Made by a program: the position numbers and the translations under genes
Part shown: one piece after another, positions 11,495-28,773 of the stretch
Layout of the letters: each line of letters starts with the position of its first letter
Position numbering within the stretch: position 1 is the stretch's first letter
DNA from: a virus
Length of the DNA: 64,000 nucleotides
Strand: one strand, 5' to 3'
IMG/VR virus record: IMGVR_UViG_3300050821_001265
Location: 5,111 to 69,110 of that record
Notes under the pieces: generated by a model
Databases searched by the model: none
Seen by the model: only the letters and a program-made list of their open reading frames with translations
Told to the model about the DNA's origin: nothing

Positions 11495-11506
11495 AAAGAC
11501 TGGTTA

Positions 11507-11587: not shown

Positions 11588-11592
11588 TAAAC

Positions 11593-11617
11593 GGGAAAAG
11601 TCCCGGGCTCTTTGAAA
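11593..11617 (+). promoter_or_regulatory. boxB-like hairpin plus boxA antitermination site
   Basis: GGGA-AAAG-TCCC hairpin followed by GCTCTTTGAAA, resembling rrn/lambdoid boxA. Confidence 0.6.
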
Positions 11618-11629
11618 CGACGGATCAGA

Positions 11630-12003: not shown

Positions 12004-12022
12004 TAACAAAGGAGACTAGCAA

Positions 12023-12226
12023 ATGGACTTCAACTTCAAAGGGCCTGGCCTCGGAACTGAGGCTGGCGCTCGCGCGCGATTGGCTAAAGTTGCTGGCTTG
12101 ACCAAGCAATCAAAGACATTCGTCGCGATACAGAATGATCGCTACTACCCGGTGGTGGTCATTAATCCCGACGATATGTGGAACGCTCGCCACATCGTTG
12201 ATTGTGGCATCTTTGTACTGAACTAA
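12023..12226 (+). CDS. hypothetical early protein
   Basis: Strong RBS AAAGGAGACTAGCAAATG. Confidence 0.7.
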   Translation: MDFNFKGPGLGTEAGARARLAKVAGLTKQSKTFVAIQNDRYYPVVVINPDDMWNARHIVDCGIFVLN

Positions 12227-12239
12227 AGGAGATTAGCAA

Positions 12240-12674
12240 ATGAACACGAAGCGCGAGAATATCATCGAGCGAGGCCGAACCGGTCAAGCGCGACTCACGA
12301 CAATCCGATTAACAGCCAAGGCCCAGCGAGAGGAGAAGACAATGATCCGTAACAACGACAAGACCGCCATCGTCAAGGCTATGCGCGATGGTAGCTTCTT
12401 CAATCCCAAACTCGAAGCCAACCTACTTGATATGAACGGGAAGAAGCGAACGTCCACCTTGGAGTTCGTAGTCAAGGCTCTTAATGCTGGAGGCTACAAT
12501 TTCGAGAAGGGAGAGATCGTTGCCGCCGAGTACGATGGTGTTACAATAACCGGCGACGTGATCTATACGATCAACTACAAAGACGAAATTGGCTTTGACG
12601 ATGTCGATGCCAATAAAGAGACCTGCCACGTTTATGTCAAGTTCGTTGATGGAGAGTGGCGAGCAGACTTCTAA
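12240..12674 (+). CDS. hypothetical early protein (second in-frame start at 12342)
   Basis: RBS AAAGGAGATTAGCAAATG; internal GAGGAG...ATG. Confidence 0.65.
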   Translation: MNTKRENIIERGRTGQARLTTIRLTAKAQREEKTMIRNNDKTAIVKAMRDGSFFNPKLEANLLDMNGKKRTSTLEFVVKALNAGGYNFEKGEIVAAEYDGVTITGDVIYTINYKDEIGFDDVDANKETCHVYVKFVDGEWRADF

Positions 12675-12705
12675 TTCAACCTAACCTAACCAGGAGTAAA
12701 TCAAA

Positions 12706-12954
12706 ATGGCAACGACTCAACTCTACAACGTGTACTCCTCCCGAGAGGATACGTTCCTGATGTCAGCTCCGATGATGGTCATCGCGGCAGCATTCAATCT
12801 TCGCCGGGAAGCAGTCAAGCGTATTGTTATTGAACTCGACACAGGTTTGCCGAGTTCAACTTGCCACTTCAATGGTCGGTCGCCGATGCTGAATCTTGAG
12901 GCGATCAAGGTTACAAAAGGCCGCAGCTGGTATAGTCAAGGAGAGAGCAAATGA
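12706..12954 (+). CDS. hypothetical early protein
   Basis: RBS AACCAGGAGTAAA. Confidence 0.65.
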   Translation: MATTQLYNVYSSREDTFLMSAPMMVIAAAFNLRREAVKRIVIELDTGLPSSTCHFNGRSPMLNLEAIKVTKGRSWYSQGESK

Positions 12955-13733
12955 AGCGCGTTGTTGTTAAGGCAAAGCTGGCCCCACAGGGACAGAGAGA
13001 GGATGACGGCATTCCAGATGACCTGAGGCGTGGGCCGGGTAATTCCCGGCCCAGTTGGTTAACTGGACCGGGAAAAGCTTGCTACGTTCTCTCCCCGGAG
13101 AAGCAAGCGGAGAAGACCCGCGACCAAGAAGTACGCGAGCAAGTTCTAAAGGAGTCACAAGAGCGCAAGGACATTCGCTACAAGAACCGCGTAGCGAAGC
13201 GGCGCTCTACGCCGCGCGACCTAACTGGCCTCGTGTGGAACGCGCGGCGTAATCGCTTCGATGTTGAGGGTCAAATCAATATTGAGCGAGCAATCAAGGA
13301 AAGCGTTGAGGCTAACCCAATCGCGCTCTACAACGATATTGCCGCCAACCTCAAGAACGTCGCGCCCATCAAAGCGAAGGACGCGAAGAAGCTAGACTTG
13401 GTCGCCGCGTGTAAGGAGTTGTGGGACCGGAGCCAACTCCAGCGTCGTACGGGTCTCGTCACGAATGGGAAGGTCAAGGTCAAGACGCCCCGTCCGCCGC
13501 GCCCTCCCGGAGCGCCGCGACCTAAGAAGGAGCCTATCAAGGAGACGGCCAAGATCAAGGTCGTAGTTAAGTCCAATCCGTTCTCGCAAAAGGCGGGTAA
13601 TCGGTACGCGACCTATGAGCTGGTCAAGAAGTCGAAGACCTATGGTGAGTTCCTCAAGAAGGGTGGCGATGCCAAGACCTTTGACAGGATACTCGGATTC
13701 AAAACTATCGCAATCGAGGAGAATGGCAAATGA
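12951..13733 (+). CDS. Lys/Arg-rich hypothetical protein
   Basis: 260 aa; DDGIPDDLRR motif; basic C-terminal NPF...RYATYE...TYGEF domain. Confidence 0.7.
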   Translation: MKRVVVKAKLAPQGQREDDGIPDDLRRGPGNSRPSWLTGPGKACYVLSPEKQAEKTRDQEVREQVLKESQERKDIRYKNRVAKRRSTPRDLTGLVWNARRNRFDVEGQINIERAIKESVEANPIALYNDIAANLKNVAPIKAKDAKKLDLVAACKELWDRSQLQRRTGLVTNGKVKVKTPRPPRPPGAPRPKKEPIKETAKIKVVVKSNPFSQKAGNRYATYELVKKSKTYGEFLKKGGDAKTFDRILGFKTIAIEENGK

Positions 13734-13927
13734 GCGTAATAGAGCGACTGGCCGGTTGTCCTACCGGCGCGACCCTCGCCGCGCTTATCGCGTGCGGGCA
13801 CGATCATAAAGACATTGACCTGGCCGTTAGGAGCGGCCTGGTCAGAATGGAAGTAAGAGACTACGCGAAGCCGCGCGGACTGAAGGTCCGGTGGTACTAC
13901 CTTAACCAAACTACCAACCAGGAGTAA
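13730..13927 (+). CDS. small winged-helix-like hypothetical protein
   Basis: Coupled ORF with GGAG...GCAAATG start. Confidence 0.55.
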   Translation: MSVIERLAGCPTGATLAALIACGHDHKDIDLAVRSGLVRMEVRDYAKPRGLKVRWYYLNQTTNQE

Positions 13928-13932
13928 AGAAA

Positions 13933-14289
13933 ATGGCTACCAACTTGACTATATTATTGGTACTCGTAACCTACTTCATACCAGCCATCGTGGCTGGCGT
14001 ACGGAACCACAGGCAACGTCTAGCCATAAATGTTCTGAACGTAGTCGCCGGCTGGACGCTTATCGGCTGGGTCGTCGCGTTCGTCTGGGCGTGTACGGCA
14101 GACGTACTCCCGAAGGGACCAGCAAGTAAGGGACGAAGGATTGCTAGCTGGACGGTCGCGACTATAGTCGTCACGATTGTCTTCTGGCCAGTTCTTGGTC
14201 CCGTCCTTGGCATATCCTTCGGACCACCAGCGGCACGATCTCATCAGACCACATATTGTAATGCTTCTGGATCGTGTTACTCTAAATGA
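13933..14289 (+). CDS. superinfection immunity protein (T4 Imm-like)
   Basis: YFIPAIVA..R.H....I..LNVVAGWTLIGWVVAFVWA is the Imm_superinfect pattern; extra TM helix follows. Confidence 0.85.
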   Translation: MATNLTILLVLVTYFIPAIVAGVRNHRQRLAINVLNVVAGWTLIGWVVAFVWACTADVLPKGPASKGRRIASWTVATIVVTIVFWPVLGPVLGISFGPPAARSHQTTYCNASGSCYSK

Positions 14290-14558
14290 AGAAGCGTAAG
14301 CCAAAGCTAGACCTAGCCGCGCTCCGCGACCTAGCCTACAAGCGGCAGCGCGGTCTTTGTTACTGGTGTGGGCAAGAAATGATATACCATGGACGCGGCG
14401 AGTTGCCGCGACCGTGGAATAATCCGCGTACTCTAACAGCCGACCACCTAGTCAGGAAGGCAGACGGAGGTAGAACCGACTCAACTAATATCGTCGCCGC
14501 GTGCGCCTGGTGTAACAACCGGCGCCACGATCAACCAACCCGGAGTAAAGCAAAATGA
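14286..14558 (+). CDS. HNH endonuclease
   Basis: CYWC...TADHLV...GG...NIVAACAWCNNRR. Confidence 0.85.
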   Translation: MKKRKPKLDLAALRDLAYKRQRGLCYWCGQEMIYHGRGELPRPWNNPRTLTADHLVRKADGGRTDSTNIVAACAWCNNRRHDQPTRSKAK

Positions 14559-15610
14559 CGAACGAACGTATCATTGATAGAATACAAAAGATGCTACGCC
14601 TCGCCAACGATGGCGGAGCGACGGAAGGCGAAGCTGATGCGGCTATGGCTCTTGCTCAAAAGATCATGGCCGAAAATAACCTCTCCATGGCTACTATCGA
14701 AGCCGCTGGAGAAGCCTCCAGCGACCCGGAGGCCGCCAAGCGGGAGCGCGAGCATCAGAACAAAGGCGCGATGTACCGTTGGCAGCGCTCCTTAATGGCG
14801 TGTCTCGCCAAGATCAACTTTTGCCACGTTACAATTACTCAGGCAAGAGACGGTCGCAGTCGTAACTCGAAAGGTTACAACATCATCGGACGAACCTCCA
14901 ACGTCGTGGCCGTTCAAACGATGTTCGACTATCTTTGCTCGTCGGTAACGCGCCTCATGACCGAGGCGATCAAGGAAGGTGGCCACCACAATCGGTCTAC
15001 CTTCGCGATGACGTTCTGCGAAGGCGCTTCAGATAGACTGATCCGCCGTCTCCACGAACGTCACGAGGAGTATCTGAAGACCCAACGCGAGAAGGCGGAA
15101 GCCGCCAACCGGAATAATCCCGCTGGCCCTTCCGCTTCTAACGCGCTGGTTGTCGTGATGGCCGACTACGCTCAAGACGAAGAGTGGGCCAATTACGATT
15201 TCAGAATGGGCCGTCCGCCCGGAACTACGAAGCGCGAACATATGAAAGCGGAGGCGCGGCGCGAAGCCGCTCGCGCCGAAGCCCAGCGGAAGAAGGCGGA
15301 CCTGATTGCCTCTGGCGTAGACGAGCAGGTAGCAGAGTACATGGCCATCTACGGATGGACGGAAGAGTACACGCGCGACTATCTGAGGAAGCATAGTCGG
15401 AGTAAGCCAGAGACGAAAGCGGAGCGCGAGCGTCGCGAGCGTCAAGACCGGAGGTGGTACGAGCAAAGACAGCGAGACTACGACAAGGCCGCGCGCCGCG
15501 CCAGTGAGCCTGGCTATCGCGCGGGACGCGTGGCGGGTGACTCGATTGGATTAGACCCGCAAGTGAAGCACGGTTCCAATAAACCCAACCCGAAGGAGAT
15601 AGGCAAATGA
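14555..15610 (+). CDS. DUF2786 domain protein
   Basis: IIDRIQKMLRLA....TEGEA.AA...AQKIMAENNL N-terminus; GY..G..AG..I.L C-terminal motif. Confidence 0.85.
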   Translation: MTNERIIDRIQKMLRLANDGGATEGEADAAMALAQKIMAENNLSMATIEAAGEASSDPEAAKREREHQNKGAMYRWQRSLMACLAKINFCHVTITQARDGRSRNSKGYNIIGRTSNVVAVQTMFDYLCSSVTRLMTEAIKEGGHHNRSTFAMTFCEGASDRLIRRLHERHEEYLKTQREKAEAANRNNPAGPSASNALVVVMADYAQDEEWANYDFRMGRPPGTTKREHMKAEARREAARAEAQRKKADLIASGVDEQVAEYMAIYGWTEEYTRDYLRKHSRSKPETKAERERRERQDRRWYEQRQRDYDKAARRASEPGYRAGRVAGDSIGLDPQVKHGSNKPNPKEIGK

Positions 15611-15804
15611 GACCAACAAAGGTCTGGCTCGTCAATTTCTACTTGAGCGAGACCTACGCGCCGAAAGCGATCAAGCAATTGACCGTTCCGGCTAGGACGC
15701 GCCGTGGCGCTATTGCTACCGCGTGTAATCGAACAAAGACTGAGCCGTGGGCGCTTCACGTGAAGCGTTCCACAGCTACCGTTCTCTATATCGTTCCACG
15801 TTAA
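15607..15804 (+). CDS. hypothetical early protein
   Basis: GGAG...GCAAATG start. Confidence 0.55.
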   Translation: MRPTKVWLVNFYLSETYAPKAIKQLTVPARTRRGAIATACNRTKTEPWALHVKRSTATVLYIVPR

Positions 15805-15831
15805 CTCAACCCCAACTAGGAGACTAAGCAA

Positions 15832-16020
15832 ATGACTATCGAAACTGATATGCGGGCGGTAGCTCGCATCATGAAGCAACGCGAGTTGCCGATGAAGGCG
15901 CAATGGAAACTGGTCGGAGGTTTCCTAGCAATAATCGGCCTTGGCTTAGGAGCGACGATGCTCTACGCCCAAACTATCCAACCTCAACACCAACAAATGG
16001 TCCCGGTGGTGTTCAAATGA
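15832..16020 (+). CDS. small single-TM membrane protein
   Basis: Hydrophobic LVGGFLAIIGLGLGATML; strong RBS. Confidence 0.6.
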   Translation: MTIETDMRAVARIMKQRELPMKAQWKLVGGFLAIIGLGLGATMLYAQTIQPQHQQMVPVVFK

Positions 16021-16317
16021 AGCGCCGATTGAAGAAAGTCTTATGGATCGTGCTAGAACTTTTCGCCTGTATACACAACTATTGAAGTAACCCAGGAGTG
16101 CTCAGAAATGAAGAGGATCAAATCAGTGATCCTATGGATCGTGCTAGAACTTTCCGGCTATGGACGGTTTTATCCAACCAAGGATGAAATCAAAAATCAA
16201 AGGTGGCCGCGTTATTGAGAAGTCTTAGCCTCCTGCGCCCTCGTCAGAGGAGGGCGCAGTGGGCGTGGACTGATGCTAGCCATTCCGGTTAGCACGCACG
16301 CTTTGGAGACTACGCAA

Positions 16318-17214
16318 ATGACTACGATCAAGAAGGTGCTCACTACAACTGTCGCGGCTGTCGCTCTTACGAGTTTGGTAGCGGCGGACGCGAATGCGTT
16401 TGGTATCGTCATTAGCTTCGGAGGCTTCCATCGTCATCACGTTAGCCGCCACCATAGCCGCCACGTTCGTTCCGAGACCCGGACCGCAAAGCGCGGCTCC
16501 GCGAAGCGCGAAGCTAAAGCCGCACCGGCCAAAGTCAATCCCGCCAACCACTACTCCGGGAAGGACGAAGTGCTGGCTATGGCGCAAGCACTTACTGGCG
16601 AACAGAAGGCAGCGGATGCCGCGTGGCAGATTTATATGAATCTGCCAAAGGTGTTCCGCGACGCAATCGGTCCCGTCTCTATCTCTACCTTCGCTAACAT
16701 CGCGGACTATCGCCGCGTCAGGCAGGCCTATGACGCTGGTGACTCGTATGAAGGTTATTCCTACACCGTCCCGATGAAAGACCGTGATGACTTTTATTGT
16801 AGCGTCAACTTGATGCCGAACCCGGACGTACCAAACGAATTTGCGACTGTCCTAGTTCATGAGCTTGCACATTGTCTCGACTTCCGCCACAAGATTGGAC
16901 ATTCCATGCCGGTAATGGAGGCGTTCTTTCTTGATAGCACGAAAGATACCAAAGCCAAGCTAATCGCTGATGGCTTTGGATACTTCACGATCGAACCGCA
17001 AGAAGCGTTCGCTCAAGCGGTCTCTCACTACTTGGTAGCCAGCGTTCGTATTGACTACGCGAAGTGGGAAGCCGATTGGCCGCATCTCAACGCTAAGGTT
17101 AGAGAGATGTTGGATGCGGGTAAGGTTGCGTACCTTGATCCGAAGACGGCAGAGAAGCCGGTCAACGCCAGCGTTAAGACGGAAGCGGTGCCGGTTGCTC
17201 CGCTTGATTACTGA
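16318..17214 (+). CDS. exported zincin-type metallopeptidase
   Basis: Signal peptide (...LVAADANA), His-rich linker, HELAH (HExxH) and downstream EAFA third-ligand motif. Confidence 0.7.
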   Translation: MTTIKKVLTTTVAAVALTSLVAADANAFGIVISFGGFHRHHVSRHHSRHVRSETRTAKRGSAKREAKAAPAKVNPANHYSGKDEVLAMAQALTGEQKAADAAWQIYMNLPKVFRDAIGPVSISTFANIADYRRVRQAYDAGDSYEGYSYTVPMKDRDDFYCSVNLMPNPDVPNEFATVLVHELAHCLDFRHKIGHSMPVMEAFFLDSTKDTKAKLIADGFGYFTIEPQEAFAQAVSHYLVASVRIDYAKWEADWPHLNAKVREMLDAGKVAYLDPKTAEKPVNASVKTEAVPVAPLDY

Positions 17215-17247
17215 ACCATGAACCAAACCCAACTCGGAGTAAAGCAA

Positions 17248-17709
17248 ATGGCCAAGCGCCAACCGAAGTTCCAGAACGTTGAGACGAACCTCGCTGATGC
17301 CATCAGCGAGGCTTTCGGAAATATGAACGAACTATCCAGCGAATGTCGCGACGTTTGCGACAATATGCCGGATAGTCTCCAATCGTCCGCGCGTTACGAA
17401 GCGCTCGACAACTCTGCGTCGGAGTTAGAAAAGGATGAGCCTGACTTCCCGGATGCGCTCCAGGAATTGAAGGTTACAATCCAGCGTCCGACGAAACTAC
17501 GCAAACAATCGCGGCGGGACCGCGCGAACGAAGCCGAGACCGTCCTGCGTAACTGCGTTGACGCTATCCAATCTTGGGTAGACGAAGCACCTAACACTGG
17601 CGTTGATACGACCGATGCCCGTGAAGACGCCGCGCAGGAATTACGGGACGCTTGCGAGGAGTTAGCCGATGCTATCGGCAACTGCGAATTTCCCGGCATG
17701 TTTGGATAA
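17248..17709 (+). CDS. hypothetical acidic helical protein
   Basis: RBS GGAGTAAAGCAAATG; DNMPDSLQSSARYE motif. Confidence 0.65.
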   Translation: MAKRQPKFQNVETNLADAISEAFGNMNELSSECRDVCDNMPDSLQSSARYEALDNSASELEKDEPDFPDALQELKVTIQRPTKLRKQSRRDRANEAETVLRNCVDAIQSWVDEAPNTGVDTTDAREDAAQELRDACEELADAIGNCEFPGMFG

Positions 17710-17719
17710 GGAGAGAGCA

Positions 17720-17971
17720 ATGAGACTTATAATTGTATTTTGCGTACTCGCTGCCACATCGGCAGCGAGCGCGCAACAGACTGTTATCCGCGACGGTCGC
17801 GGGAATACGGTAGGAACAGTGACCACCGACAGCGCGGGCACCCAGACCTTTCGTGGCGCCAATGGAAATACCACGGGCACCTCGACCCGCGATAGCGCCG
17901 GTACAGTAACCTATCGCGATGCTCGTGGCAATACGGTAGGCACCGCGACCCGGAGCGGAGGCCGCCGATGA
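17720..17971 (+). CDS. small exported repeat protein
   Basis: Signal peptide plus three RDxxGNTVGT-like repeats. Confidence 0.7.
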   Translation: MRLIIVFCVLAATSAASAQQTVIRDGRGNTVGTVTTDSAGTQTFRGANGNTTGTSTRDSAGTVTYRDARGNTVGTATRSGGRR

Positions 17972-18165
17972 TGGTAATTTCAAAACTCGTCAAGACAGAG
18001 CTAACATCGATCTGTCTTGCCGCTCTGACTGACTTCCTTCGATCCACGCGCGGAGCGAATATATTTGGAGCGAAGGCTACGGTCACGGAGCCGAAGCCCA
18101 ATACGCTTCAAGTTCGCGCTAGCGATGGCCGCTACTTTGAAGTCATCATCAAGGAAACCTTCTGA
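17968..18165 (+). CDS. hypothetical protein
   Basis: Coupled ORF. Confidence 0.5.
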   Translation: MMVISKLVKTELTSICLAALTDFLRSTRGANIFGAKATVTEPKPNTLQVRASDGRYFEVIIKETF

Positions 18166-18338
18166 TGAAGAAGGAGAGAGCAAAGATTTGTTCCATCTGT
18201 GACGAACCGTTCACGGAATACGGAAACAACGCGGAGCCGGTCAACTCTGGTCGCTGCTGCGACGATTGTAACTGGGAAGTGGTGCTACCAGCGAGGTTGG
18301 TAGCATTCTTCAAACTACCAAAAGGAGAGAAGCAATGA
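18165..18338 (+). CDS. small Cys-rich (zinc-binding) protein
   Basis: Manually translated MKKERAKICSICDEPFTEYGNNAEPVNSGRCCDDCNWEVVLPAR...; C..C...GNNA.P...GRCC..CN pattern common in phages. Confidence 0.65.
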   Translation: MKKERAKICSICDEPFTEYGNNAEPVNSGRCCDDCNWEVVLPARLVAFFKLPKGEKQ

Positions 18339-18541
18339 CGAAGCCTGCTGAAGAACTTCTTGAGGAGGTTACAAGGAAGGTCCGCGCCTTCCTTCGTAAG
18401 GACTTCCCGGAGATTGCTATTGACGCGGAGGAGAGTGGCCTTGACACGGAGATAGCTTATGTCTTGGTCGATATGATCTCTGGTGACCTGGACGATGATC
18501 TACCAGATCATGGTGATTGGGCAATTCCGCGCGCCAATTAG
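18335..18541 (+). CDS. hypothetical acidic protein
   Basis: RBS AAAGGAGAGAAGCAATG. Confidence 0.55.
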   Translation: MTKPAEELLEEVTRKVRAFLRKDFPEIAIDAEESGLDTEIAYVLVDMISGDLDDDLPDHGDWAIPRAN

Positions 18542-18643
18542 GTAGCGACTTCATGCCGCCGAGTGCGACGGCGGCATCTGGGCGCAACCCCGTAGCCTCG
18601 CCAGCTACAGTACCACCCAACTCTCCAAGAAAGGAGACTAACT

Positions 18644-19045
18644 ATGGTACGAAGAAGTGAACGCGGCGAACGCCGCACCTGCTACGCTGAAATTGGCATC
18701 TTCTATAACGCAGAAGCCGATTGTATCCATATAACAACACCAGACCTTCCCGACGGTCATCTCAGGATTTCAAAAGACCCTGATTTGCGTTGGGGGCATC
18801 CGAGGCTATACGATGTGTTAGCCCGGTTGCTCAAACAGGTTGGTGCTCCTGGTCCGGAAGTTATGGATCACGTAAGCAATATGACGCGGTTAGAGATAGC
18901 CGCGAAGCTACACGAGCATGGAGCTACGCTTGGCTTCCTAGCCTCTCTCAGTGACGATGAAATTCGGGAGATGTATAGGAACGTCCGGCGTAATCCCTCC
19001 GCGCCGATTGCGGAGAACTATCCGGCACAACCGGACTCTAACTAA
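18644..19045 (+). CDS. hypothetical protein
   Basis: RBS AAAGGAG; 133 aa. Confidence 0.6.
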   Translation: MVRRSERGERRTCYAEIGIFYNAEADCIHITTPDLPDGHLRISKDPDLRWGHPRLYDVLARLLKQVGAPGPEVMDHVSNMTRLEIAAKLHEHGATLGFLASLSDDEIREMYRNVRRNPSAPIAENYPAQPDSN

Positions 19046-19223
19046 GCGAGAGCAAGTTGAGCCGTCGCGCGCAAATGCGCGGCGTCTCTTCTATCTTAGA
19101 AGGATGAAGCGATGGATGATCCGCTAGCGAAGCTAGATCAGATACGACGCAAGGCGCGCTACCTACTATGGGTAGTGAGCCTCAACCTCTTTCTAACAAC
19201 CATATTGTTTATATGGATCGTGT

Positions 19224-19499
19224 ATGAAAGATAGTCCCTGGATCGTAGGACGTAACGCAGAACGCGAGGCCATCCAAAGTGATCTCGCGTTCCTCAACTC
19301 TATACTAGAACAAATGTTTACGCGTTGGCCAGAACCTGATCAACGCGTATCAACGATGATTGCTAAGTTCGCGTGCTACCTACTTGCGCGCTGCGGAGAC
19401 GGTGACGATTCAATAGCTTGGGTCGTTGCCGAGATACGAGGCTTGCGAGAGCGAGACCAAGCCAAACGGAAGCGACAAAGAAGGAGACGAAGCAAATGA
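19224..19499 (+). CDS. hypothetical protein
   Basis: 91-aa ORF coupled to the next gene. Confidence 0.5.
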   Translation: MKDSPWIVGRNAEREAIQSDLAFLNSILEQMFTRWPEPDQRVSTMIAKFACYLLARCGDGDDSIAWVVAEIRGLRERDQAKRKRQRRRRSK

Positions 19500-19747
19500 A
19501 AGAGAAAGTCCTACCAGGAGGCGGAATACGCAAAGGTCGAATAACGTACACCCGCAAAATGCATACTCACGAACTCAATCGTGCGGCTTTGATATACGGT
19601 CTCATTACCGAATACTCAAAGACCGAATGTTTGCGGATGCACAACGAGCGCATCAAGCGAGCCAAAGCTGGCGAGATTGTTTACGAAGGTCGCGGCGTAT
19701 GGCGTGGGAAATTTGATAATCGTCGCGCGCCAAATAACTGGGATTGA
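19496..19747 (+). CDS. hypothetical basic protein
   Basis: RBS AAGGAGACGAAGCAAATG. Confidence 0.55.
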   Translation: MKEKVLPGGGIRKGRITYTRKMHTHELNRAALIYGLITEYSKTECLRMHNERIKRAKAGEIVYEGRGVWRGKFDNRRAPNNWD

Positions 19748-19788
19748 GGAGATACGCAAGGGGAATGATCTTCCCATCGCGTTTTGTG

Positions 19789-19879
19789 GCGGCGTTACCG
19801 GTGGCTCCCAGAAAGCTGTTTTGTGGCTTCCCTTGCGTTAGTCATTTGCGCCATTCAAAGACAGCAAACGCCGCTTTTT
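19789..19879 (+). ncRNA. candidate structured intergenic RNA with anti-start-codon loop (element B)
   Basis: Stems GCGGCGTT/AACGCCGC, GCTGTTTTG/CAAAGACAGC and TGGC/GCCA; 22-nt loop containing TAGTCATTTGC; 3' U5 tract. Confidence 0.5.
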
Positions 19880-19901
19880 ATCTTCAGAAAGAGAGAGCAA
19901 A

Positions 19902-20225
19902 ATGAAAGATGTACTATACCAAATTGCGTTCCCGCCAATGACGTGGAATCAACTAGGAAAGGTCCTGGAGGGTCTCCCCAAAGGGATGTTCCCGGAGATA
20001 CAACGATTGGTCGCGCGTGACGACCCGAGGCCAAACGGTAGCGCCGCGCCGCCGCGCGGCGAGCTAGAAGACGCCATCTTAATGGCGCTTAAGTCCCGCG
20101 CCTTATCCCACGCGGAGCTAGCGGCGAAGACCGGGCGCAATCCGAAGTCGGTCTACTCCGCGCTGACGCGGATGAAGCGCAAGAGGATGGTGACGAAGAA
20201 GGAGGGTCGCTATGCGCGTGTATGA
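19902..20225 (+). CDS. winged-helix DNA-binding protein
   Basis: C-terminal AILMALK....SHAELAAKTGRNPKSVYSALTRMKRKRMV. Confidence 0.7.
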   Translation: MKDVLYQIAFPPMTWNQLGKVLEGLPKGMFPEIQRLVARDDPRPNGSAAPPRGELEDAILMALKSRALSHAELAAKTGRNPKSVYSALTRMKRKRMVTKKEGRYARV

Positions 20226-20511: not shown

Positions 20512-20670
20512 CGCCCATCGGATCAGGAGTTGTCGGCTGGCTGTTGTTATTGATAATCGTTGCTTGCGTAGTTGTATGGCATTTTAGATCGTGAGCTCAT
20601 ATAGCGGAGTGCGACCGCTATATGGTCGTGCGATCTAATCAACGCGCGCGCACGGCGCAAGGAGAGAACT

Positions 20671-21720: not shown

Positions 21721-21746
21721 CATTCACACTAGCGGGAGCAATACAA

Positions 21747-22394: not shown

Positions 22395-22417
22395 CTTTCC
22401 TGACGTAGCGTCTAAAC

Positions 22418-22455
22418 TGACGGCTGTAGTTGGGAGACCCCAGCTACAGCCGTCA
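22418..22455 (+). promoter_or_regulatory. 17-bp intergenic hairpin (processing site or terminator-like)
   Basis: TGACGGCTGTAGTTGGG-AGAC-CCCAGCTACAGCCGTCA; no U-tract. Confidence 0.55.
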
Positions 22456-22475
22456 ACTATAACAGGAGGCGCTAG

Positions 22476-22730
22476 ATGATCCGACTATCCGACCATGAAC
22501 AAATCGTACTGAAGTTGATCCCGTCTAACGGGAAGAAAATTACAACGCGGGTTCTTGTTGTGAAGTTCTACGAATATCTCGGGACCAAGGTCCCGATGCA
22601 TGGCCGCGTGAATGTGGGGAGTAAGATACGCTCGCTGATCAAGAAGACGCGCCTCAATGATGTTCGCGTTCGTAGCTCGAAACGCGCGGGACCGTACCCA
22701 ATAGACGTTTGGAAGGAACGCCGCGAATGA
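22476..22730 (+). CDS. hypothetical basic protein
   Basis: AGGAGG RBS; coupled to the helicase gene. Confidence 0.55.
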   Translation: MIRLSDHEQIVLKLIPSNGKKITTRVLVVKFYEYLGTKVPMHGRVNVGSKIRSLIKKTRLNDVRVRSSKRAGPYPIDVWKERRE

Positions 22731-24313: not shown

Positions 24314-24585
24314 AGAAGAAAGAACAACTAGGTGACGCGCCGATTGAACCGAAATATATCGAGCAGATGAACAACGTAGCGCGTGCATTGGATGAATTCT
24401 TTAATGCGGGTCTCAAAGGCAAGGACCGCCCAACTGGATTTGTCCTGATGGTATTTCCTTTTGGCGATCACTCTGGACGTTGTAACTATATCAGTAATGG
24501 TGCGAACCGCAAAGACGTAGTCAATCTGATGAAGGAAATGATCGCGCGCTTCGAGGGACAACCAGAGATGAAAGGTAGCGCGTGA
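24310..24585 (+). CDS. conserved hypothetical phage protein
   Basis: GFVLMVFPFG...RCNYISNGANR.D motif frequent in alphaproteobacterial phages. Confidence 0.65.
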   Translation: MKKKEQLGDAPIEPKYIEQMNNVARALDEFFNAGLKGKDRPTGFVLMVFPFGDHSGRCNYISNGANRKDVVNLMKEMIARFEGQPEMKGSA

Positions 24586-24674
24586 TGATAACTACAATCC
24601 TACTGCTAATGATCGTAGCGGCGCTGCTACTGGCCGCGCTGCTAGTCCTATTCGTAAGATAACAAGGAGCAATC

Positions 24675-25016
24675 ATGAGCAACATCGAAGGAGAACGACT
24701 GATGGAAAATATGGAGCGAGCAATGTCAGGTGAGGAGGAGATTGCCCCAAGCAAGCCGGAGCCTCGTTCATTAATACCAACGAACAATCGACTATTGCCC
24801 CGCGCCTCGGCAATCATGGCGAGCGTAGCTGACCTCTCACAGAAAATTGAAGCGCTGCGCGATAAAATTCGCGGCGTTCTACCAGCGACCCGCCCGACCG
24901 TCGTCAAACTCGATACCACGAAGGAGCCGCAAGGAATGCCGAGCACATTTGACGCGACGGAGCGTCAGCTGGCAGCAGCCCACAAGATGCTATCAGAACT
25001 ACACGAGATGTTCTAA
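24675..25016 (+). CDS. hypothetical protein
   Basis: AAGGAG RBS; 113 aa. Confidence 0.6.
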   Translation: MSNIEGERLMENMERAMSGEEEIAPSKPEPRSLIPTNNRLLPRASAIMASVADLSQKIEALRDKIRGVLPATRPTVVKLDTTKEPQGMPSTFDATERQLAAAHKMLSELHEMF

Positions 25017-25128
25017 TAGTTGGCTCTGGTAGCTTAAGGAAAAGCGTGGCCGCTGAAGCTGTTCCGATTAAGGCCAAGATGTGAGTGCAAGGCTCACCCA
25101 GAGCGCAGCTACCAAAGGAGAGAAGCAA

Positions 25129-25545
25129 ATGAAGTTCTTACTGATCGACCCGAAAGCGCGCAAGCTACATGTCGGGGACTTTCCCGAATTGAACGATGCG
25201 AAGATCGCAGCTGGTCTTAACCCTCGTGAAGTAGACCACGGAACGGTCGCGCGTAGTCTATCCATCGTTGTGTACGAGTTCTCGTTGTTCGTCCCGCCAG
25301 AGGAGCAGTTCTACTTCTCCTTGGGCGATCAATTGTTCGCTGGGTCCGCAGTCATCTATCAAACAAACAGTATCGGCGAGACCGTCAACTTTGATAAAAC
25401 TATCCTGACCGCGACCTTCCCAAATCCCGGATGGTTGCGATGGTACCGCAGCGTCAATGAGATTGAAGCTGCGATATCAGGAGGGACCTTAAGGCGTCCG
25501 CAGACAGCGGTCAACGATACGGTTCTTTGGTCATGGAACCGATGA
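25129..25545 (+). CDS. hypothetical protein
   Basis: RBS AAAGGAGAGAAGCAAATG; MKFLLIDP...FAG.AV pattern (DUF3846-like). Confidence 0.6.
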   Translation: MKFLLIDPKARKLHVGDFPELNDAKIAAGLNPREVDHGTVARSLSIVVYEFSLFVPPEEQFYFSLGDQLFAGSAVIYQTNSIGETVNFDKTILTATFPNPGWLRWYRSVNEIEAAISGGTLRRPQTAVNDTVLWSWNR

Positions 25546-25688
25546 TAAAAATCCTCCTCACCTTCGCGCTGCTAGTCGTCGCAGCGTGGCTAGTCTTCAA
25601 CGATCACGCTATCGGTGGAGCCGCGTTAGCTTTTGTGGTATTGGTTCTGATCTTGCTAGATCATAGAACATGAGAAGAAGGAGAGCCC

Positions 25689-27413
25689 ATGTTTACGCGA
25701 CTGTGGCGCGCCTTCCTAGCGCGCTGGGGACGGCTATGGCCGTTTCCTTCCCTAGTCCCGGAGACCGCGCCGGTAGGCGTCCCGCAGCCCGTAGGAACCT
25801 CCCGGAGCGTTCCGGAGCCTCCCGGGCTAGGTCCGGCTATCCGCCTCCCGGAAACACCCGTAGGAGCCTCCCTAGCCGTCCCGGAGCCTCGCCCCGTAGG
25901 AGCCTCCCTAGCCGTTCCGGAGCCTCCCAGGCTAGGTCCGGCTAGCCGCGCCGGGAAAGCCTCCGGACGCGCCCCGGAGCCCCAGCGCGACCCCTTCCCG
26001 CCCCCACCGCCTCCCGAAGATGGCTGCTACCTTACGGACGATATGGGCCCGGAGGAACAGCGCCGGAGGTTACGGGAGCAGTATGAGAAGGAGCGGCGGA
26101 AGCACGATAAGTTTGTGGAGCCGAAAGGTCCCCATCCGGTTAAGCGCCAGCGCGTCCCGGTAGTAATGGATGAAGAGGAGTTAGACGCGCACGAACCGAC
26201 GCACCATGTTCCTGAAAAGGAAAGAGCGCGGCCCATCCCTGCGCTCGATGGTCCGCTGGTACCTGAAGGCTTTTTAATTGACCAACATCACGAAGGCGGA
26301 AAGGTCCTATTTGAAGAGGCTGAGTCCTGGGGTCAGTTTAATTTCCGCGATACTATCCTTGGCCAACTAGAGCGCTATTTTGTTTATCTGCGCCGTATGC
26401 GCCGGACTGATAAGTCAGCCTATGATTTGTATCGCGCTGTCGGCGCCACCATTGAGCCATATCTGTCCAATGTTTGGCATGGCGAGGCTGACGCTGGGGA
26501 CGCAGAACTGCTGTATAAATTCTCCGAGGAGACCATTGAGTATATGAAACGGGACGAACTATCCCCAGCCTTCATAAGAGACCGTCCAGCCTTCGGCTGT
26601 GTAACTTATGGAACCGATCCGCTTTCAGAAAGCCGCGAGTTGACCCAATCAACTAAAACAAAACGAGTTCTTTGGATACCCAAGTTCATGTACTTCACGA
26701 AATTCGAGAAGCCGCCAATCAAGTGGCAACCGATGTCCAGAGTCAAGGGCGACGTGTACGGTCTAACCGTATGGTGGGACCGTCCTCACGATCCGAGGGA
26801 GTATCGACGCAAGTATGGCGTACCTCAAGACTTCGGGGTTTGGGTAAGCAAAGATGGTAAAACAATCCGCATCCTTAAGCAGCATCTGAAGTGGAACCGT
26901 TGGGCGTACCCTCACGACTTTAAGGACTGGGCGAAAAATCGCGGCGTGGATGTACAAGTTTTTCTTCGCCATCTGTTCATCATGGCGGTAAGACATGCGG
27001 AAGACATCGAGCTATCCATGGTCCGCGTCAACGTACACAAGCGCGACCTAACCGCCGTGTTCGGAGTAAACGTGGAGCGTCTCGCCTACTTCTTCCAGGA
27101 TCGTGACTTTGCGCTTACGGCTACAGGTAGCCGCAAGCGTATCTTCCATCTCGTCAAACCGTATCAACGCAAGGACGGCAGCTGGACAAAGATGTACTTT
27201 GCCGGGGAGCGCGAGTTTGAATGGGCAGGGTACCACGTTCAGCTAACGGTTCCGGGTCTACATCATCAAAGCCTAAACACTTTCCATTATGGTAGCATCG
27301 ACAGCGGCAGAGTTAAGGATCCAGACAACCCAAAGAAATACGTTAGTACTGAATACATGGCCAAGATATTCGCGGAGTACATCCGTACTGGCAAGATTAG
27401 AAAAGGGGACTAG
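25689..27413 (+). CDS. hypothetical protein with Pro-rich repeat N-terminus
   Basis: 574 aa; C-terminal RKRIFHLVKPY.R motif. Confidence 0.7.
   Translation: MFTRLWRAFLARWGRLWPFPSLVPETAPVGVPQPVGTSRSVPEPPGLGPAIRLPETPVGASLAVPEPRPVGASLAVPEPPRLGPASRAGKASGRAPEPQRDPFPPPPPPEDGCYLTDDMGPEEQRRRLREQYEKERRKHDKFVEPKGPHPVKRQRVPVVMDEEELDAHEPTHHVPEKERARPIPALDGPLVPEGFLIDQHHEGGKVLFEEAESWGQFNFRDTILGQLERYFVYLRRMRRTDKSAYDLYRAVGATIEPYLSNVWHGEADAGDAELLYKFSEETIEYMKRDELSPAFIRDRPAFGCVTYGTDPLSESRELTQSTKTKRVLWIPKFMYFTKFEKPPIKWQPMSRVKGDVYGLTVWWDRPHDPREYRRKYGVPQDFGVWVSKDGKTIRILKQHLKWNRWAYPHDFKDWAKNRGVDVQVFLRHLFIMAVRHAEDIELSMVRVNVHKRDLTAVFGVNVERLAYFFQDRDFALTATGSRKRIFHLVKPYQRKDGSWTKMYFAGEREFEWAGYHVQLTVPGLHHQSLNTFHYGSIDSGRVKDPDNPKKYVSTEYMAKIFAEYIRTGKIRKGD
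25755..25985 (+). repeat. degenerate ~10-12-bp periodic repeat (CCGGAGCCTCCC/CCGTAGGAGCC)
   Basis: CCGG recurs at 25758, 25770, 25802, 25812, 25822, 25833, 25848, 25881, 25917, 25938, 25951, 25963 and 25974. Confidence 0.7.
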
Positions 27414-27415
27414 GA

Positions 27416-28093
27416 ATGAAACAAGGAGATAATCGTGGCCGCTGGGGTTCTGCGAGTAAGCGCGCAGCTGGACCGCATATGATCACTACCGAGGCGCAAA
27501 CCTTAGATGAAGTTCTGGATATTTTGAAAGACAAGCAGCGCCGCAAGCCGTCACCGCCGACCCTACGTCAAGAGTTAGGTTTGAGCAAACTTCAACGACG
27601 CAATGTAACTCTACCTATGGGCGGAGTCAAATTGACTCCGATAAAGTTACATCAACAAAATCGCGGACAGACATCAGTAATCGGACATCAGCCATGGACC
27701 GAGGCAGAAGTGGTAGAGGCGTATCGGTCGGGAATTGATAGGATAGTTGATCTAGGCAAACTGGCTAAGGTTCCGCTCAATCGAGTTCGCGCATGGTTGT
27801 ACAAATTTGGAGTTTGGGAGATACCCGAAGTAGTCTCTCTCGAAAGATATCAGGATATGCTAAAGAAACAGAAAGAACGATTGGCCATTAGGAGAGCCAA
27901 GTCTAAGGATATACAGGAACGGCGGACGATTGCAATGCGTCGCCGCAAGAAAAATAATCTGCTTTGTGCTCCTTATGAAGAGACGATATCTGAATGGGAA
28001 TTGAAAAGTAGCATAGAGTACACAGAACAACAAATCAAAAAGACTAATCAACTACACAAAGACCGTCTTGTCTGGATAAAGGAGAACGAATAA
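27416..28093 (+). CDS. hypothetical basic protein (possible HTH)
   Basis: 225-aa ORF, visibly AT-richer than its neighbours. Confidence 0.55.
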   Translation: MKQGDNRGRWGSASKRAAGPHMITTEAQTLDEVLDILKDKQRRKPSPPTLRQELGLSKLQRRNVTLPMGGVKLTPIKLHQQNRGQTSVIGHQPWTEAEVVEAYRSGIDRIVDLGKLAKVPLNRVRAWLYKFGVWEIPEVVSLERYQDMLKKQKERLAIRRAKSKDIQERRTIAMRRRKKNNLLCAPYEETISEWELKSSIEYTEQQIKKTNQLHKDRLVWIKENE

Positions 28094-28345
28094 GGCTGCA
28101 AGCTACGAGATGGCCAAACAACTTCAATTACTACCGGGAGGTGTCGTGATGATTCACCAAAGAGCGCTAGTGTACGCTTTTATAATCGCAATGATGATTA
28201 TCGCGCTCTGGCTTCTATCTGATTGTAGCTCTGACTATAGCCGCGAGCGTAACAGCGGTGGAATGAAAAATGGAGTCATCACTGATCTACATAAATACTG
28301 TTTGGAGTTTCCAAAGGACGCTGCGTGTCAAGGAAAGGAGAGCAA

Positions 28346-28603
28346 ATGATGGACGATCTAACTGAATGGAAGAAGCGCGCGGATGGCGGCGATAGCCGCT
28401 ATGCGATAGCGCTAGCACTAATGGCTATTGCGGAAGCTATCAGTGATAAGGGAACAAAGGAGGTAGGAATCATAGACCATGTTAGCTCATCGCTAGACGA
28501 TAAGTTTGATACGTTGATTCGAGTCATGGAGAGACTACCAGAGGAGGAGGGTGATACGCCACTATCACCTCCTCTGAAGCGGCGATGGTGGCATCGAACC
28601 TAA
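28346..28603 (+). CDS. hypothetical protein
   Basis: AAGGAGAGCAAATG start. Confidence 0.55.
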   Translation: MMDDLTEWKKRADGGDSRYAIALALMAIAEAISDKGTKEVGIIDHVSSSLDDKFDTLIRVMERLPEEEGDTPLSPPLKRRWWHRT

Positions 28604-28773
28604 AGACGCCTTCGGAATACTAACTACCAACCACAACCAGGAGTAAAGCAAATGGAAGAGTTGAGAGAGCGCATCAACAATCTCTATGGCGCCTTGCTTT
28701 TGAGCGCCATAAAAATAAAAGAGTTGGAGGAGGAAAAAAAGAAGCGAAATGGAAGCAAACGATAATAAGATTG

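What the first reader, a model, noticed from the sequence alone, without database searches (positions are those of the whole stretch)
12011..28654. Candidate phage antisense-RNA translational regulon: conserved GGAG-N-GCAAAUG start regions matched by loop-exposed antisense elements
Seen: 12 + strand genes start with exactly GCAAATG shortly after GGAG (ATG at 12023, 12240, 12951, 13730, 15607, 15832, 16318, 17248, 19496, 25129, 28346, 28652). Near variants (GCAATG, GCAAAATG, GCACAATG) occur at 1730, 2810, 3353, 14555, 17720, 18335 and 19902. Three unrelated intergenic structured elements on the same strand carry reverse complements of parts of this region in predicted loops: ATTTGCTCTCTCCT (1645-1658), TAGTCATTTGCG (19839-19850) and CCTGGTT twice (11521-27, 11568-74). 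Known: start-associated sequences exist in cluster K mycobacteriophages, and bacterial sRNAs repress translation by pairing over SD/AUG. Inference: the phage standardised its early start regions so that a few of its own RNAs can shut them off together in trans. I do not recognise this as a described system.
Basis: partly seen in the sequence, partly recalled or inferred. Interest (0 to 1): 0.85.

Follow-up and report, generated by a model that had tools for sequence, protein, structure and literature searches.

The report
Shared start motif on phage genes
An uncultured soil phage puts nearly the same short sequence (GGAG, a few bases, GCAA, then ATG) in front of a fifth of its non-structural genes, a kind of "start-associated sequence" already seen but never explained in other phages, and the idea that the phage's own antisense RNAs switch these starts off has little support.

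Summary
The sequence observation holds. GGAG-N0-5-GCAAATG occurs 12 times on the + strand and 0 times on the - strand (0.1 expected). Every copy starts an ORF of 37-298 codons.

The window is most of a 69-kb soil-metagenome myovirus. GCAA directly precedes the start codon in 12 of 59 non-structural-arm genes and 1 of 40 virion-arm genes. One closer relative (L090) carries the motif on non-homologous genes. More distant relatives carry different start repeats of their own.

This is a start-associated sequence (SAS), as described and still unexplained in Cluster K mycobacteriophages, Microbacterium EF phages and Citrobacter phage Mordin.

The antisense-regulon reading is weak:
- Only the inverted copy at 1645-1658 exceeds chance (4 of 200 shuffles; best of 14,992 windows). 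It is not robustly unpaired.
- Five other SAS-bearing phages or loci have no inverted copy.
- The 12-mer at 19839 is chance-level and sits in a terminator-like hairpin.
- The CCUGGUU loops belong to a covarying hairpin in a 705-nt leader.

I found no RNA data with which to test expression.

The parts
12011..12025 (+). SAS, GGAGACTAGCAAATG, start of 67-codon ORF 12023-12226
12228..12242 (+). SAS, start of 144-codon ORF 12240-12674
12940..12953 (+). SAS (GGAGAGAGCAAATG), start of 260-codon ORF; overlaps the end of the upstream ORF (ATGA)
13718..13732 (+). SAS, start of 65-codon ORF. Its L090 orthologue (67% aa identity) has no SAS
15595..15609 (+). SAS, start of 65-codon ORF
15819..15834 (+). 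SAS, start of 62-codon ORF
16305..16320 (+). SAS, start of 298-codon ORF; preceded by conserved hairpin B
17236..17250 (+). SAS with C/A-rich upstream tract, start of 153-codon ORF
19483..19498 (+). SAS, start of 83-codon ORF
25117..25131 (+). SAS, start of 138-codon ORF
28337..28348 (+). SAS (short spacer), start of 85-codon ORF
28640..28654 (+). SAS with C/A-rich tract, start of 37-codon ORF
1720..1732 (+). near-variant SAS (GCAATG), start of 309-codon ORF; the least open of the 19 start regions (0.25)
2800..2812 (+). near-variant SAS, start of 107-codon ORF
3341..3355 (+). near-variant SAS (GCACAATG), start of thymidylate-synthase-like ORF
14542..14557 (+). near-variant SAS (GCAAAATG), start of 351-codon DUF2786/DUF7168 ORF
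17710..17722 (+). near-variant SAS, start of 83-codon ORF
18324..18337 (+). near-variant SAS, start of 68-codon ORF
19890..19904 (+). near-variant SAS without GGAG (AGAGAGAGCAAAATG), start of 107-codon ORF
12679..12708 (+). SAS relative of the C/A-rich subfamily (AACCAGGAGTAAATCAAAATG), start of 82-codon ORF
13907..13935 (+). SAS relative of the C/A-rich subfamily, start of the Imm_superinfect ORF
1645..1658 (+). single inverted copy of the SAS consensus (anti-SAS when read on the + strand) in the 149-nt gap 1581-1729
19788..19880 (+). long hairpin followed by a T-run (terminator-like). Its apical loop holds the 12-mer at 19839-19850
11319..12022 (+). about 705 nt with no convincing ORF, directly upstream of the first exact SAS gene; L090 has a counterpart of similar length
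11507..11539 (+). hairpin A copy 1, 7-nt loop CCUGGUU
11550..11589 (+). hairpin A copy 2, 7-nt loop CCUGGUU
16221..16271 (+). hairpin B, invariant GUCAG loop, covarying stems, 34 nt upstream of the SAS at 16305

Best explanation
The repeat is a lineage-specific start-associated sequence (SAS): a standardised translation-initiation cassette used by the non-structural (+ strand) arm of a 69-kb myovirus. Its form is an optional C/A-rich tract, GGAG(A/T), about 4 variable bases, GCAA, AUG, and usually A at +4.

Most likely it works in cis. It presents a strong Shine-Dalgarno core at a fixed 8-nt spacing inside an unusually open stretch of mRNA. Ribosomes therefore load efficiently, either from solution or by termination-reinitiation at ATGA overlaps. 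The near-identity of the copies is kept by selection on that cassette, and the cassette stays in place while the small genes behind it are replaced.

Shown: the motif, its position, its class restriction, its openness in silico, and its persistence on non-homologous genes in a relative.

Inferred: that it raises initiation, and that no dedicated trans-acting partner is needed.
For: - Position: 12 of 12 full motifs lie at ORF starts, all on +.
- Class restriction: GCAA at -4..-1 in 12 of 59 + arm genes against 1 of 40 virion-arm genes (Fisher p = 0.013; 0.28 expected from composition, binomial tail 1.4e-16). GGAG at -14..-6 in 40 of 59 against 11 of 40. ATG in 56 of 59. A at +4 in 42 of 59 against 13 of 40.
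- Openness: median unpaired probability over -16..+3 is 0.58 for the 19 SAS starts, 0.49 for 39 other + arm starts (p = 0.037) and 0.42 for 39 virion-arm starts (p = 9e-5).
- Upstream tract: C+A fraction is 0.64 against 0.53 and 0.53.
- Overlaps: 8 of the 19 sit on a 4-nt overlap with a called upstream gene.
- Not gene duplication: no paralogy among the + arm proteins at E <= 0.01, apart from one 20-residue hit.
- Conservation: L090 (polymerase 83% aa identity) has the motif at 7 starts downstream of its polymerase, on genes mostly not homologous to the window's SAS genes.
- Family trait: relatives at 45-59% polymerase identity have different start repeats in front of small genes: L092 x4, L023 x5-6, L073 x5.
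- Precedent: same anatomy as published SASs (passages of PMC3203893, PMC7302621, PMC4611695).
Against: - G and C at -4 and -3 are not what a merely unstructured, A-rich spacer would need. Yet they persist in L090 across 24% nucleotide divergence of the polymerase gene, which hints at sequence-specific recognition by something.
- If the cassette were simply the best ribosome site, the abundant virion proteins should use it, and they do not.
- Different relatives use different motifs. That fits a co-evolving phage factor or concerted evolution as well as it fits ribosome optimisation.
- The host and its 16S rRNA are unknown, so extended rRNA pairing was not tested.
- Openness and gene calls come from my own simple ORF caller and from ViennaRNA folds, not from data.
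- No expression or translation measurement exists for this phage.
Confidence: 0.5

Rival explanations
1. The SAS is an operator for a phage- or host-encoded RNA-binding protein or endonuclease that treats the whole gene class together. T4 does this with RegB plus ribosomal protein S1 (cleavage at GGAG plus an A-rich 3' context in early start regions) and with RegA (a repressor binding start regions).
For: - The motif is class-restricted and overlaps both the SD and the AUG.
- GGAG is enriched on the early arm: 40 of 59 against 11 of 40.
- The specific GC at -4/-3 is conserved in L090, and the motif is lineage-specific among relatives.
- The RegB/S1 target is an 11-nt single-stranded GGA plus an A-rich stretch (abstract of PMC1702504).
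- Mordin, which has SAS-like repeats, is annotated with a RegB-like protein.
- Most small + arm proteins have no known family, so a novel factor could hide among them.
Against: - No Pfam match to RegA, RegB, CsrA or S21 anywhere in the 69-kb record at E <= 1. The record is estimated to be 83% complete.
- There is no positive evidence for any binding protein.
Confidence: 0.22
2. First reader's idea, reduced to what survives. The inverted SAS at 1645-1658, carried on + strand RNA, is an anti-SAS that pairs with SAS start regions in trans (or within the same polycistronic RNA) and lowers their translation together.
For: - It is a perfect 14-nt complement of the 12951 start region. Matches of 14 nt or more occur in 4 of 200 dinucleotide shuffles.
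- It ranks 1 of 14,992 16-nt windows of the + strand 1-30000 for mean duplex energy with the 19 start regions (-17.16 kcal/mol), with 18 of 19 at or below -12. The next independent window scores -14.48.
- It lies in one of the few gaps over 100 nt.
- It is the only reverse hit of the consensus in the genome: 8 forward, 1 reverse.
- Four K1 mycobacteriophages also have one inverted SAS each, not at a gene start (passage of PMC3203893).
Against: - It is not reliably single-stranded: unpaired probability is 0.62, 0.47, 0.28, 0.11 and 0.14 in five folding contexts.
- The region as a whole folds no better than shuffles (z = +1.07).
- No promoter- or terminator-like signal marks out a discrete small RNA (sequence read; one search did not cover this region).
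- One site embedded in an mRNA would face about 19 targets.
- No inverted copy exists in Mordin (15/0), in the L023 genome (5/0), or in the held parts of L092, L073 and L090.
- The other two proposed elements are at chance level: rank 97, and ranks 1141 and 2187, of 14,992.
- The reverse complement CATTTGC is not enriched: 6 in the window against about 5.9 expected per strand.
- The gap between the two flanking genes is an insertion-prone spot in relatives, so a relic of an inverted cassette is plausible.
Confidence: 0.09
3. The repeats matter at the DNA level. They are short homologies at gene boundaries through which small early genes are swapped in and out, as proposed for PeSL cassettes of T4-type phages. 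Their sameness comes from concerted evolution, with nothing beyond ordinary SD function in translation.
For: - The SAS region is hyperplastic. Between the window and L090, only 3 of 9 L090 ORFs have full-length homologues here, and two more have partial matches, while the motif persists.
- The L090 homology block for gene 13730 begins exactly at the ATG.
- Each lineage has its own repeat.
- PeSL precedent: titles and abstract openings only of PMC2839356 and PMC4122927.
Against: - The conserved block is anchored to the start codon to the nucleotide, and is kept when it lies inside the upstream ORF. That points to translation.
- The motifs are only 12-16 nt, 30 nt at most, which is short for homologous exchange.
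- ATG and A(+4) are co-enriched with it.
- The orthologue of gene 13730 in L090 lacks the motif, so the motif is not simply carried with a cassette.
Confidence: 0.1

Closest known systems
Start-associated sequences (SAS) of Cluster K mycobacteriophages (Pope et al. 2011, PMC3203893; passages read)
   Same: - A short asymmetric repeat in 11-19 copies that contains the SD core.
- It lies within a few bases of start codons, nearly always ATG.
- One orientation, and restricted to the non-structural half of the genome.
- Found on unrelated gene families and conserved across related phages.
- A single inverted copy that is not at a gene start (in four K1 phages).
- Function unknown; an RNA or a protein ligand was left open.
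   Different: - Different sequence (GGGATAGGAGCCC there).
- There the conserved flanks surround the SD and end 3-7 nt before the start. Here the second conserved block (GCAA) abuts the ATG.
- No ESAS-type 17-bp inverted repeats here. Instead a C/A-rich tract and, at one gene, a covarying hairpin.
- The host here is unknown and probably Gram-negative. This is a guess from a PEP-CTERM protein and from the hosts of the nearest named phages.
- A myovirus, not a temperate siphovirus.
26-bp repeat of Citrobacter myophage Mordin, Felix O1-like (PMC4611695; passage read; record KT363872)
   Same: - A C/A-rich tract, then GGAG, then an A-rich spacer, in front of small hypothetical genes on one arm of a lytic myovirus of a Gram-negative host.
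- 15 forward copies of the 17-nt core at 3 mismatches or fewer.
   Different: - Different sequence, and no GCAA block next to the ATG.
- No inverted copy (0 reverse).
- Mordin is annotated with a RegB-like protein. This phage has none detectable.
SAS/ESAS of Microbacterium cluster EF phages (PMC7302621; passages read)
   Same: Ten copies of a 13-bp motif at the RBS position of non-structural genes. Those phages also encode a Pol III alpha-type polymerase and ThyX, as this one does.
   Different: Different motif (GGGAAAGGACCCC), an actinobacterial host, and an ESAS always linked to the SAS.
T4 RegB/S1 target sites and RegA operators
   Same: Early-gene start regions share GGAG plus an A-rich, single-stranded 3' context that lets one factor act on the whole class (abstract of PMC1702504). 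That RegA binds start regions including the AUG is recalled, not checked here.
   Different: No RegB or RegA homologue in the record. T4 sites are degenerate, whereas here a specific GCAA is kept.
PeSL cassettes of T4-type phages (PMC2839356, PMC4122927; search listing only)
   Same: Repeated regulatory sequences between small variable genes in hyperplastic regions of myoviruses, linked to gene shuffling.
   Different: PeSLs are promoter plus stem-loop composites, not start-codon-anchored RBS motifs. A sigma-70-type scan here is at chance (17 found against 13.1 expected).

Membership tests
Start-associated sequence (SAS) | Short asymmetric repeat present in about ten or more copies in one genome | tested here: met
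   12 exact copies plus 7 near variants and 2 further relatives. 0.1 exact copies expected.
Start-associated sequence (SAS) | Lies at the RBS position within a few bases of a predicted start codon and includes the SD core | tested here: met
   12 of 12 exact motifs end in the ATG of an ORF of 37 codons or more.
Start-associated sequence (SAS) | One orientation, confined to the non-structural part of the genome | tested here: met
   12 on +, 0 on -. GCAA before the start in 12 of 59 against 1 of 40 genes. One inverted consensus copy.
Start-associated sequence (SAS) | Strong preference for ATG starts | tested here: met
   19 of 19 SAS genes and 56 of 59 + arm genes start with ATG, against 32 of 40 on the virion arm.
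Start-associated sequence (SAS) | Conserved in related phages and attached to unrelated gene families | tested here: met
   L090 has 7 motif-bearing starts, mostly on genes without a homologue here. No paralogy among the window's SAS genes.
Start-associated sequence (SAS) | Conservation beyond what can pair with the 16S rRNA tail | tested here: inconclusive
   GCAA at -4..-1 cannot extend a GGAG:CCUC pairing in the canonical tail (established knowledge). The host and its 16S rRNA are unknown, so this was not checked.
Start-associated sequence (SAS) | Extended SAS: imperfect 17-bp inverted repeats upstream of a subset | tested here: not met
   No shared inverted repeat upstream of the SAS copies in the repeat finder. 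A C/A-rich tract instead. One covarying hairpin upstream of gene 16318 only. In Cluster K only about half the SASs carry an ESAS, so I treat this as a subset feature rather than a bar to membership.
Trans-acting antisense small-RNA regulon | Discrete small RNA with its own start and end | not testable with these tools
   Needs RNA 5'/3' end data from infected cells.
Trans-acting antisense small-RNA regulon | Seed complementarity to the targets beyond chance | tested here: inconclusive
   1 of 3 elements passes. The 14-mer: 4 of 200 shuffles, rank 1 of 14,992. The 12-mer: 57 of 200 shuffles, rank 97. The 7-mers: ranks 1141 and 2187.
Trans-acting antisense small-RNA regulon | Seed exposed in a stable structure | tested here: inconclusive
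   19839 and CCUGGUU are in loops of the MFE folds. The 1645 element is paired or unpaired depending on context. The regions' z-scores are +1.07, -0.19 and +0.73.
Trans-acting antisense small-RNA regulon | Seed conserved and co-varying with targets in relatives | tested here: inconclusive
   Only L090 is close enough, and it covers only the CCUGGUU hairpin. The loop is kept, but no AACCAGG lies in the held 5.6 kb.
Trans-acting antisense small-RNA regulon | Anti-motif accompanies the start motif in other phages that have such motifs | tested here: not met
   Mordin 15/0, L023 genome 5/0, held parts of L092 6/0, L073 3/0 and L090 4/0, forward/reverse.
T4 RegB/S1 or RegA control of early start regions | Phage encodes a RegB or RegA homologue | tested here: not met
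   PF10715 and PF01818: no candidate in the 69-kb record at E <= 1. The record is about 83% complete.
T4 RegB/S1 or RegA control of early start regions | Early start regions share GGAG plus an A-rich single-stranded 3' context | tested here: met
   GGAG in 40 of 59 against 11 of 40. SAS start regions are the most open.
PeSL-type mobile regulatory cassette | Promoter plus stem-loop composite between variable genes | tested here: not met
   SAS copies contain no stem-loop. Sigma-70-like and terminator-like sites are at chance frequency: 17 against 13.1, and 26 against 22.4.

The most novel reading that the evidence does not exclude
The lone inverted SAS at 1645-1658 is a real anti-SAS. Carried on early + strand RNA, it base-pairs with up to 18 of the 19 standardised start regions and sets or shuts off their translation as a group. 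This would give the first mechanism for start-associated sequences, and would explain why some Cluster K phages also keep exactly one inverted copy.
Probability: 0.08. Interest if true: 0.8.

Novelty: new variant of a known kind. Interest (0 to 1): 0.4.

Why it matters
Start-associated sequences have been in print since 2011. Papers of 2024 and 2025 still call their role ill-defined or unverified (PMC11373665 and PMC12699233, passages).

This case shows the phenomenon in an uncultured soil myovirus lineage that uses a DnaE-type polymerase. The conserved block touches the start codon, and related phages each carry their own version. That widens SAS from an actinobacteriophage curiosity towards a recurrent way of organising early-gene translation, and it supplies natural sequence variants for reporter tests.

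It also shows that a striking antisense match can be mostly chance. Only one of the three proposed elements deserves a bench test.

Tried and rejected
Relatives
- Megablast of 12000-20000 against GenBank phages: no match.
- Helicase and the 351-aa protein against IMG/VR: no relative.
- An 18-nt SAS word in IMG/VR gave two loci (L088, L089) with one copy each and no tblastx similarity to this genome, so I treated them as chance.
- A hairpin-B pattern in IMG/VR: none.
- Of 80 IMG/VR loci found with the polymerase, 2 have a single GGAG-N4-GCAAATG and none has more.
- The noncoding regions have no DNA similarity to any locus except L090.

RNA families and tRNAs
- Rfam at gathering thresholds on the whole window, and at E <= 1 on 11300-12030: nothing.
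- No tRNA or tmRNA.

Expression
- No RNA holder listed among public runs.
- Four DNA runs (X1-X4) hold near-identical contigs. These gave no informative variation at the motif or the elements.

Cis anti-RBS idea for the 1645 element
- The MFE of 1581-1745 pairs it with the next gene's start region.
- A duplex test of that start region against its 148 nt upstream is unremarkable: -16.3 kcal/mol, z = -0.41, and 72 of 200 shuffles do as well.
- The same test in 10 relatives gave z from -0.93 to +1.10. I therefore do not claim cis sequestration.

- strand ORF at 1645: the - strand reading of the site has ATC where the ATG would be, followed by 9 codons (read by eye), so it is not a gene start.

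Known RNA-binding or ribosome factors: RegA, RegB, CsrA and S21 were not found.

Gene calls
- They are from my own ORF tiling, not a trained gene finder.
- For one search I dropped 11 of 70 + strand ORFs as doubtful: 1587, 4528, 5359, 10536, 11332, 11411, 11612, 18553, 29517, 29716, 30018.
- I used 17720 instead of 17669.
- The virion-arm set is the 40 - strand ORFs of 45 codons or more beyond genome position 35000.

Tools and papers
- Supplementary files of papers were not opened. Fig. S3 and the tables of PMC3203893 may bear on the inverted-copy parallel, which I know only from the main-text passages.
- PMC9262239 held nothing on SAS.
- One search was an uninformative literature search.
- In print or not: searches ('start associated sequence', 'start-associated sequences') found 3 and 7 papers. 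None of the passages I read tests an antisense RNA. I did not search further, so I do not claim the idea is absent from print.

Recalled, from no call: RegA operator properties; RfaH/ops and LoaP leader-hairpin recruitment of NusG paralogues; C/A-rich translational enhancers and S1.

Full report
**What the window is.** The window is bases 5111-69110 of a 69,110-nt virus record. The record is classed as linear and estimated to be 83% complete.
- The - strand half (about 30-64 kb) encodes large terminase, portal, a protease-capsid fusion, tail sheath, tape measure and an endolysin-like protein.
- The + strand half encodes a DnaE-type polymerase (7697-10546), a helicase, a thymidylate-synthase-like protein, an RNase T-type exonuclease, a PNKP-type phosphatase and many small proteins without a known family.
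- The nearest named phages share only 35-37% polymerase identity.
- Near-identical DNA is held by four soil-metagenome runs, X1-X4.

**The observation.** GCAAATG occurs 23 times against 11.7 expected.
- The full pattern GGAG-N0-5-GCAAATG occurs 12 times, all on the + strand between 12011 and 28654. Shuffles give a mean of 0.1 and a maximum of 2.
- Every copy ends in the ATG of an ORF of 37-298 codons.

**Class restriction.** These figures use my own ORF tiling; Tried and rejected lists the rows I dropped. All are unless noted.

| Feature | + arm (59 genes) | Virion arm (40 genes) |
|---|---|---|
| GCAA at -4..-1 | 12 | 1 |
| GCA(A)(A) variants included | 20 | 3 |
| GGAG at -14..-6 | 40 | 11 |
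| ATG start | 56 | 32 |
| A at +4 | 42 | 13 |

- From base composition 0.28 GCAA copies are expected among the 59 genes, giving a binomial tail of 1.4e-16.
- SAS start regions are predicted to be the most open. Median unpaired probability is 0.58, against 0.49 for other + arm starts and 0.42 for virion-arm starts.
- Their upstream 19 nt are C/A-rich: 0.64 against 0.53.
- Repeat finding groups the sites into subfamilies of 20-30 nt (D2, D3, D5, D6).
- The proteins behind them are not paralogues.
- Eight of the 19 sit on a 4-nt overlap with a called upstream gene, so the motif is then encoded inside the preceding ORF.

**Relatives.** None of 80 IMG/VR loci with polymerase identity of 37-62% has the motif more than once.
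- One metagenome contig, L090, has 83% aa and 76% nt polymerase identity. It has the motif or close variants at seven starts downstream of its polymerase.
- Only three of nine L090 ORFs have full-length homologues here, and two more have partial matches.
- The orthologue of gene 13730 lacks the motif, while non-homologous genes carry it.
- More distant relatives carry their own start repeats in front of small genes: L092 (four copies), L023 (five to six copies of an approximately 27-nt repeat) and L073 (five copies).
- A standardised start region is therefore a recurring trait of this phage group, with a sequence specific to each lineage.

[quoted passage not shown] It is confined to the non-structural arm and runs in one orientation, with a single inverted copy in four K1 phages. 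The ligand was left open as 'either RNA or protein' (PMC3203893).
- Comparable repeats are reported in Microbacterium cluster EF phages (PMC7302621).
- Citrobacter myophage Mordin has a 26-bp C/A-rich-GGAG repeat (PMC4611695).
- Papers of 2024 and 2025 still call the role ill-defined or unverified (PMC11373665; PMC12699233).
- The differences here are the sequence, the second conserved block touching the ATG, and the absence of ESAS-type inverted repeats.

**Testing the antisense reading.**
1. Exact complements. I compared the 19 start regions (-20 to +11) with the + strand of 1-30000. The longest match is the 14-mer at 1645. A match that long or longer appears in 4 of 200 dinucleotide shuffles. 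The 12-mer at 19839 is ordinary: 57 of 200 shuffles reach 12.
2. Duplex energies of every 16-nt window against the 19 start regions. The 1645 window ranks 1 of 14,992, with a mean of -17.16 kcal/mol and 18 of 19 targets at or below -12. The 19839 window ranks 97. The CCUGGUU windows rank 1141 and 2187. The best window inside the 705-nt noncoding region ranks 29 and lies in a stem.
3. Exposure. The 1645 element has an unpaired probability of 0.62, 0.47, 0.28, 0.11 and 0.14 in five contexts. In the MFE of 1581-1745 it pairs with the start region of gene 1730.
4. That cis pairing is itself not special: z = -0.41, and 10 relatives show nothing.
5. Inverted copies elsewhere. Mordin has 15 forward and 0 reverse, the L023 genome 5 and 0, and the held parts of L092, L073 and L090 have 0 reverse. 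The window's own genome has 8 forward and 1 reverse.
6. The gap holding the 1645 element lies between two genes whose homologues are separated by 42 nt to 3.6 kb in relatives. It is a variable spot where a relic could sit.

**What the other two elements are.**
- 19788-19880 folds into a long hairpin closed by a GC-rich stem and followed by a T-run. It lies just before gene 19902, which makes it terminator-like. The fold is not significant on its own (z = -1.34).
- The CCUGGUU loops cap a repeated hairpin, hairpin A. There are two copies here and one in L090. Of 13 predicted pairs, 8 keep pairing through double changes, and the loop is invariant. A covariance model finds one more candidate, in L084.
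- Hairpin A lies in a 705-nt stretch without a convincing ORF, directly upstream of the first SAS gene. L090 has a counterpart of similar length.
- A second element, hairpin B (16221-16271), is very stable (z = -4.79). It has six copies in four lineages, with an invariant GUCAG loop and 9 of 17 pairs compensated. Each copy lies 25-45 nt upstream of a gene start.
- The phage encodes a NusG-like protein just outside the window, and eight related loci have homologues.
- From recalled knowledge, specialised NusG paralogues are recruited by leader hairpins. These hairpins are therefore better candidates for protein recruitment or RNA processing than for antisense seeds. This is inference.

**Verdict.**
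- The start motif is real, highly non-random and class-specific. It is best filed as a new variant of the known but unexplained SAS phenomenon.
- I favour a cis-acting standardised initiation cassette (0.5).
- After that come a protein or nuclease operator (0.22), DNA-level cassette junctions (0.10) and the antisense reading reduced to the single inverted copy (0.09).
- The antisense regulon as proposed, with three elements, is not supported.
- The inverted copy at 1645-1658 remains a cheap and specific thing to test.

Noticed in passing
L172:1845-2360 (- strand; genome coordinates, just left of the window): 171-aa NusG-like protein (PF02357, E = 2.2e-14). tblastn finds homologues in 8 related loci. 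This points to phage-directed transcription elongation or antitermination over the long + strand arm.
   Followed up: partly
window 16221-16271; L090:3875-3927 and 4632-4683; L096:14127-14182; L015:8784-8839; L009:14773-14819: Conserved hairpin with an invariant GUCAG loop and covarying stems (9 of 17 pairs compensated; z = -4.79 for the window copy). Always 25-45 nt upstream of a gene start, downstream of the polymerase gene. No Rfam family.
   Followed up: partly
window 11319-12022: About 705 nt without a convincing ORF, between the replication genes and the first SAS gene. L090 has a counterpart. It holds a strongly conserved T-rich block (about 11440-11500) and two copies of a covarying hairpin with loop CCUGGUU.
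   Followed up: partly
L092:13204-15120; L023:13380-19010; L073 (- strand of the locus): Related phages carry their own lineage-specific start repeats in front of small genes. Examples are a 15-nt repeat x4 in L092 and an approximately 27-nt repeat x5 in L023.
   Followed up: partly
window 25788-25973: Three copies of an approximately 81-nt direct repeat inside the 574-codon ORF 25689-27413. They encode a proline-rich repeated N-terminal segment. No family match for the protein.
   Followed up: no
window 14267, 16043, 16134, 19213: A second short motif, ATGGATCGTG: 3 exact and 1 near copy on the + strand within 5 kb. With 1 mismatch or fewer there are 12 in the window against 5.1 expected, and 1 of 100 shuffles reaches 12. 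Two copies lie in a 30-nt direct repeat at 16039 and 16130.
   Followed up: no
window 19063-19084: GC-rich hairpin after gene 18644-19045 with GCAAATG in its 4-nt-loop region. It is one of the GCAAATG copies that is not at a gene start.
   Followed up: no
window 13933-14289 and 14286-14558: A superinfection-immunity-family protein (PF14373, E = 1.5e-17) next to a small HNH endonuclease, both inside the SAS gene cluster.
   Followed up: no
L172:1039-1728 (- strand): 229-aa protein ending in a PEP-CTERM motif (E = 4.3e-8). Its start region (GGAGACTAGGAATG) resembles the SAS spacer. This is a possible hint at the host group.
   Followed up: no
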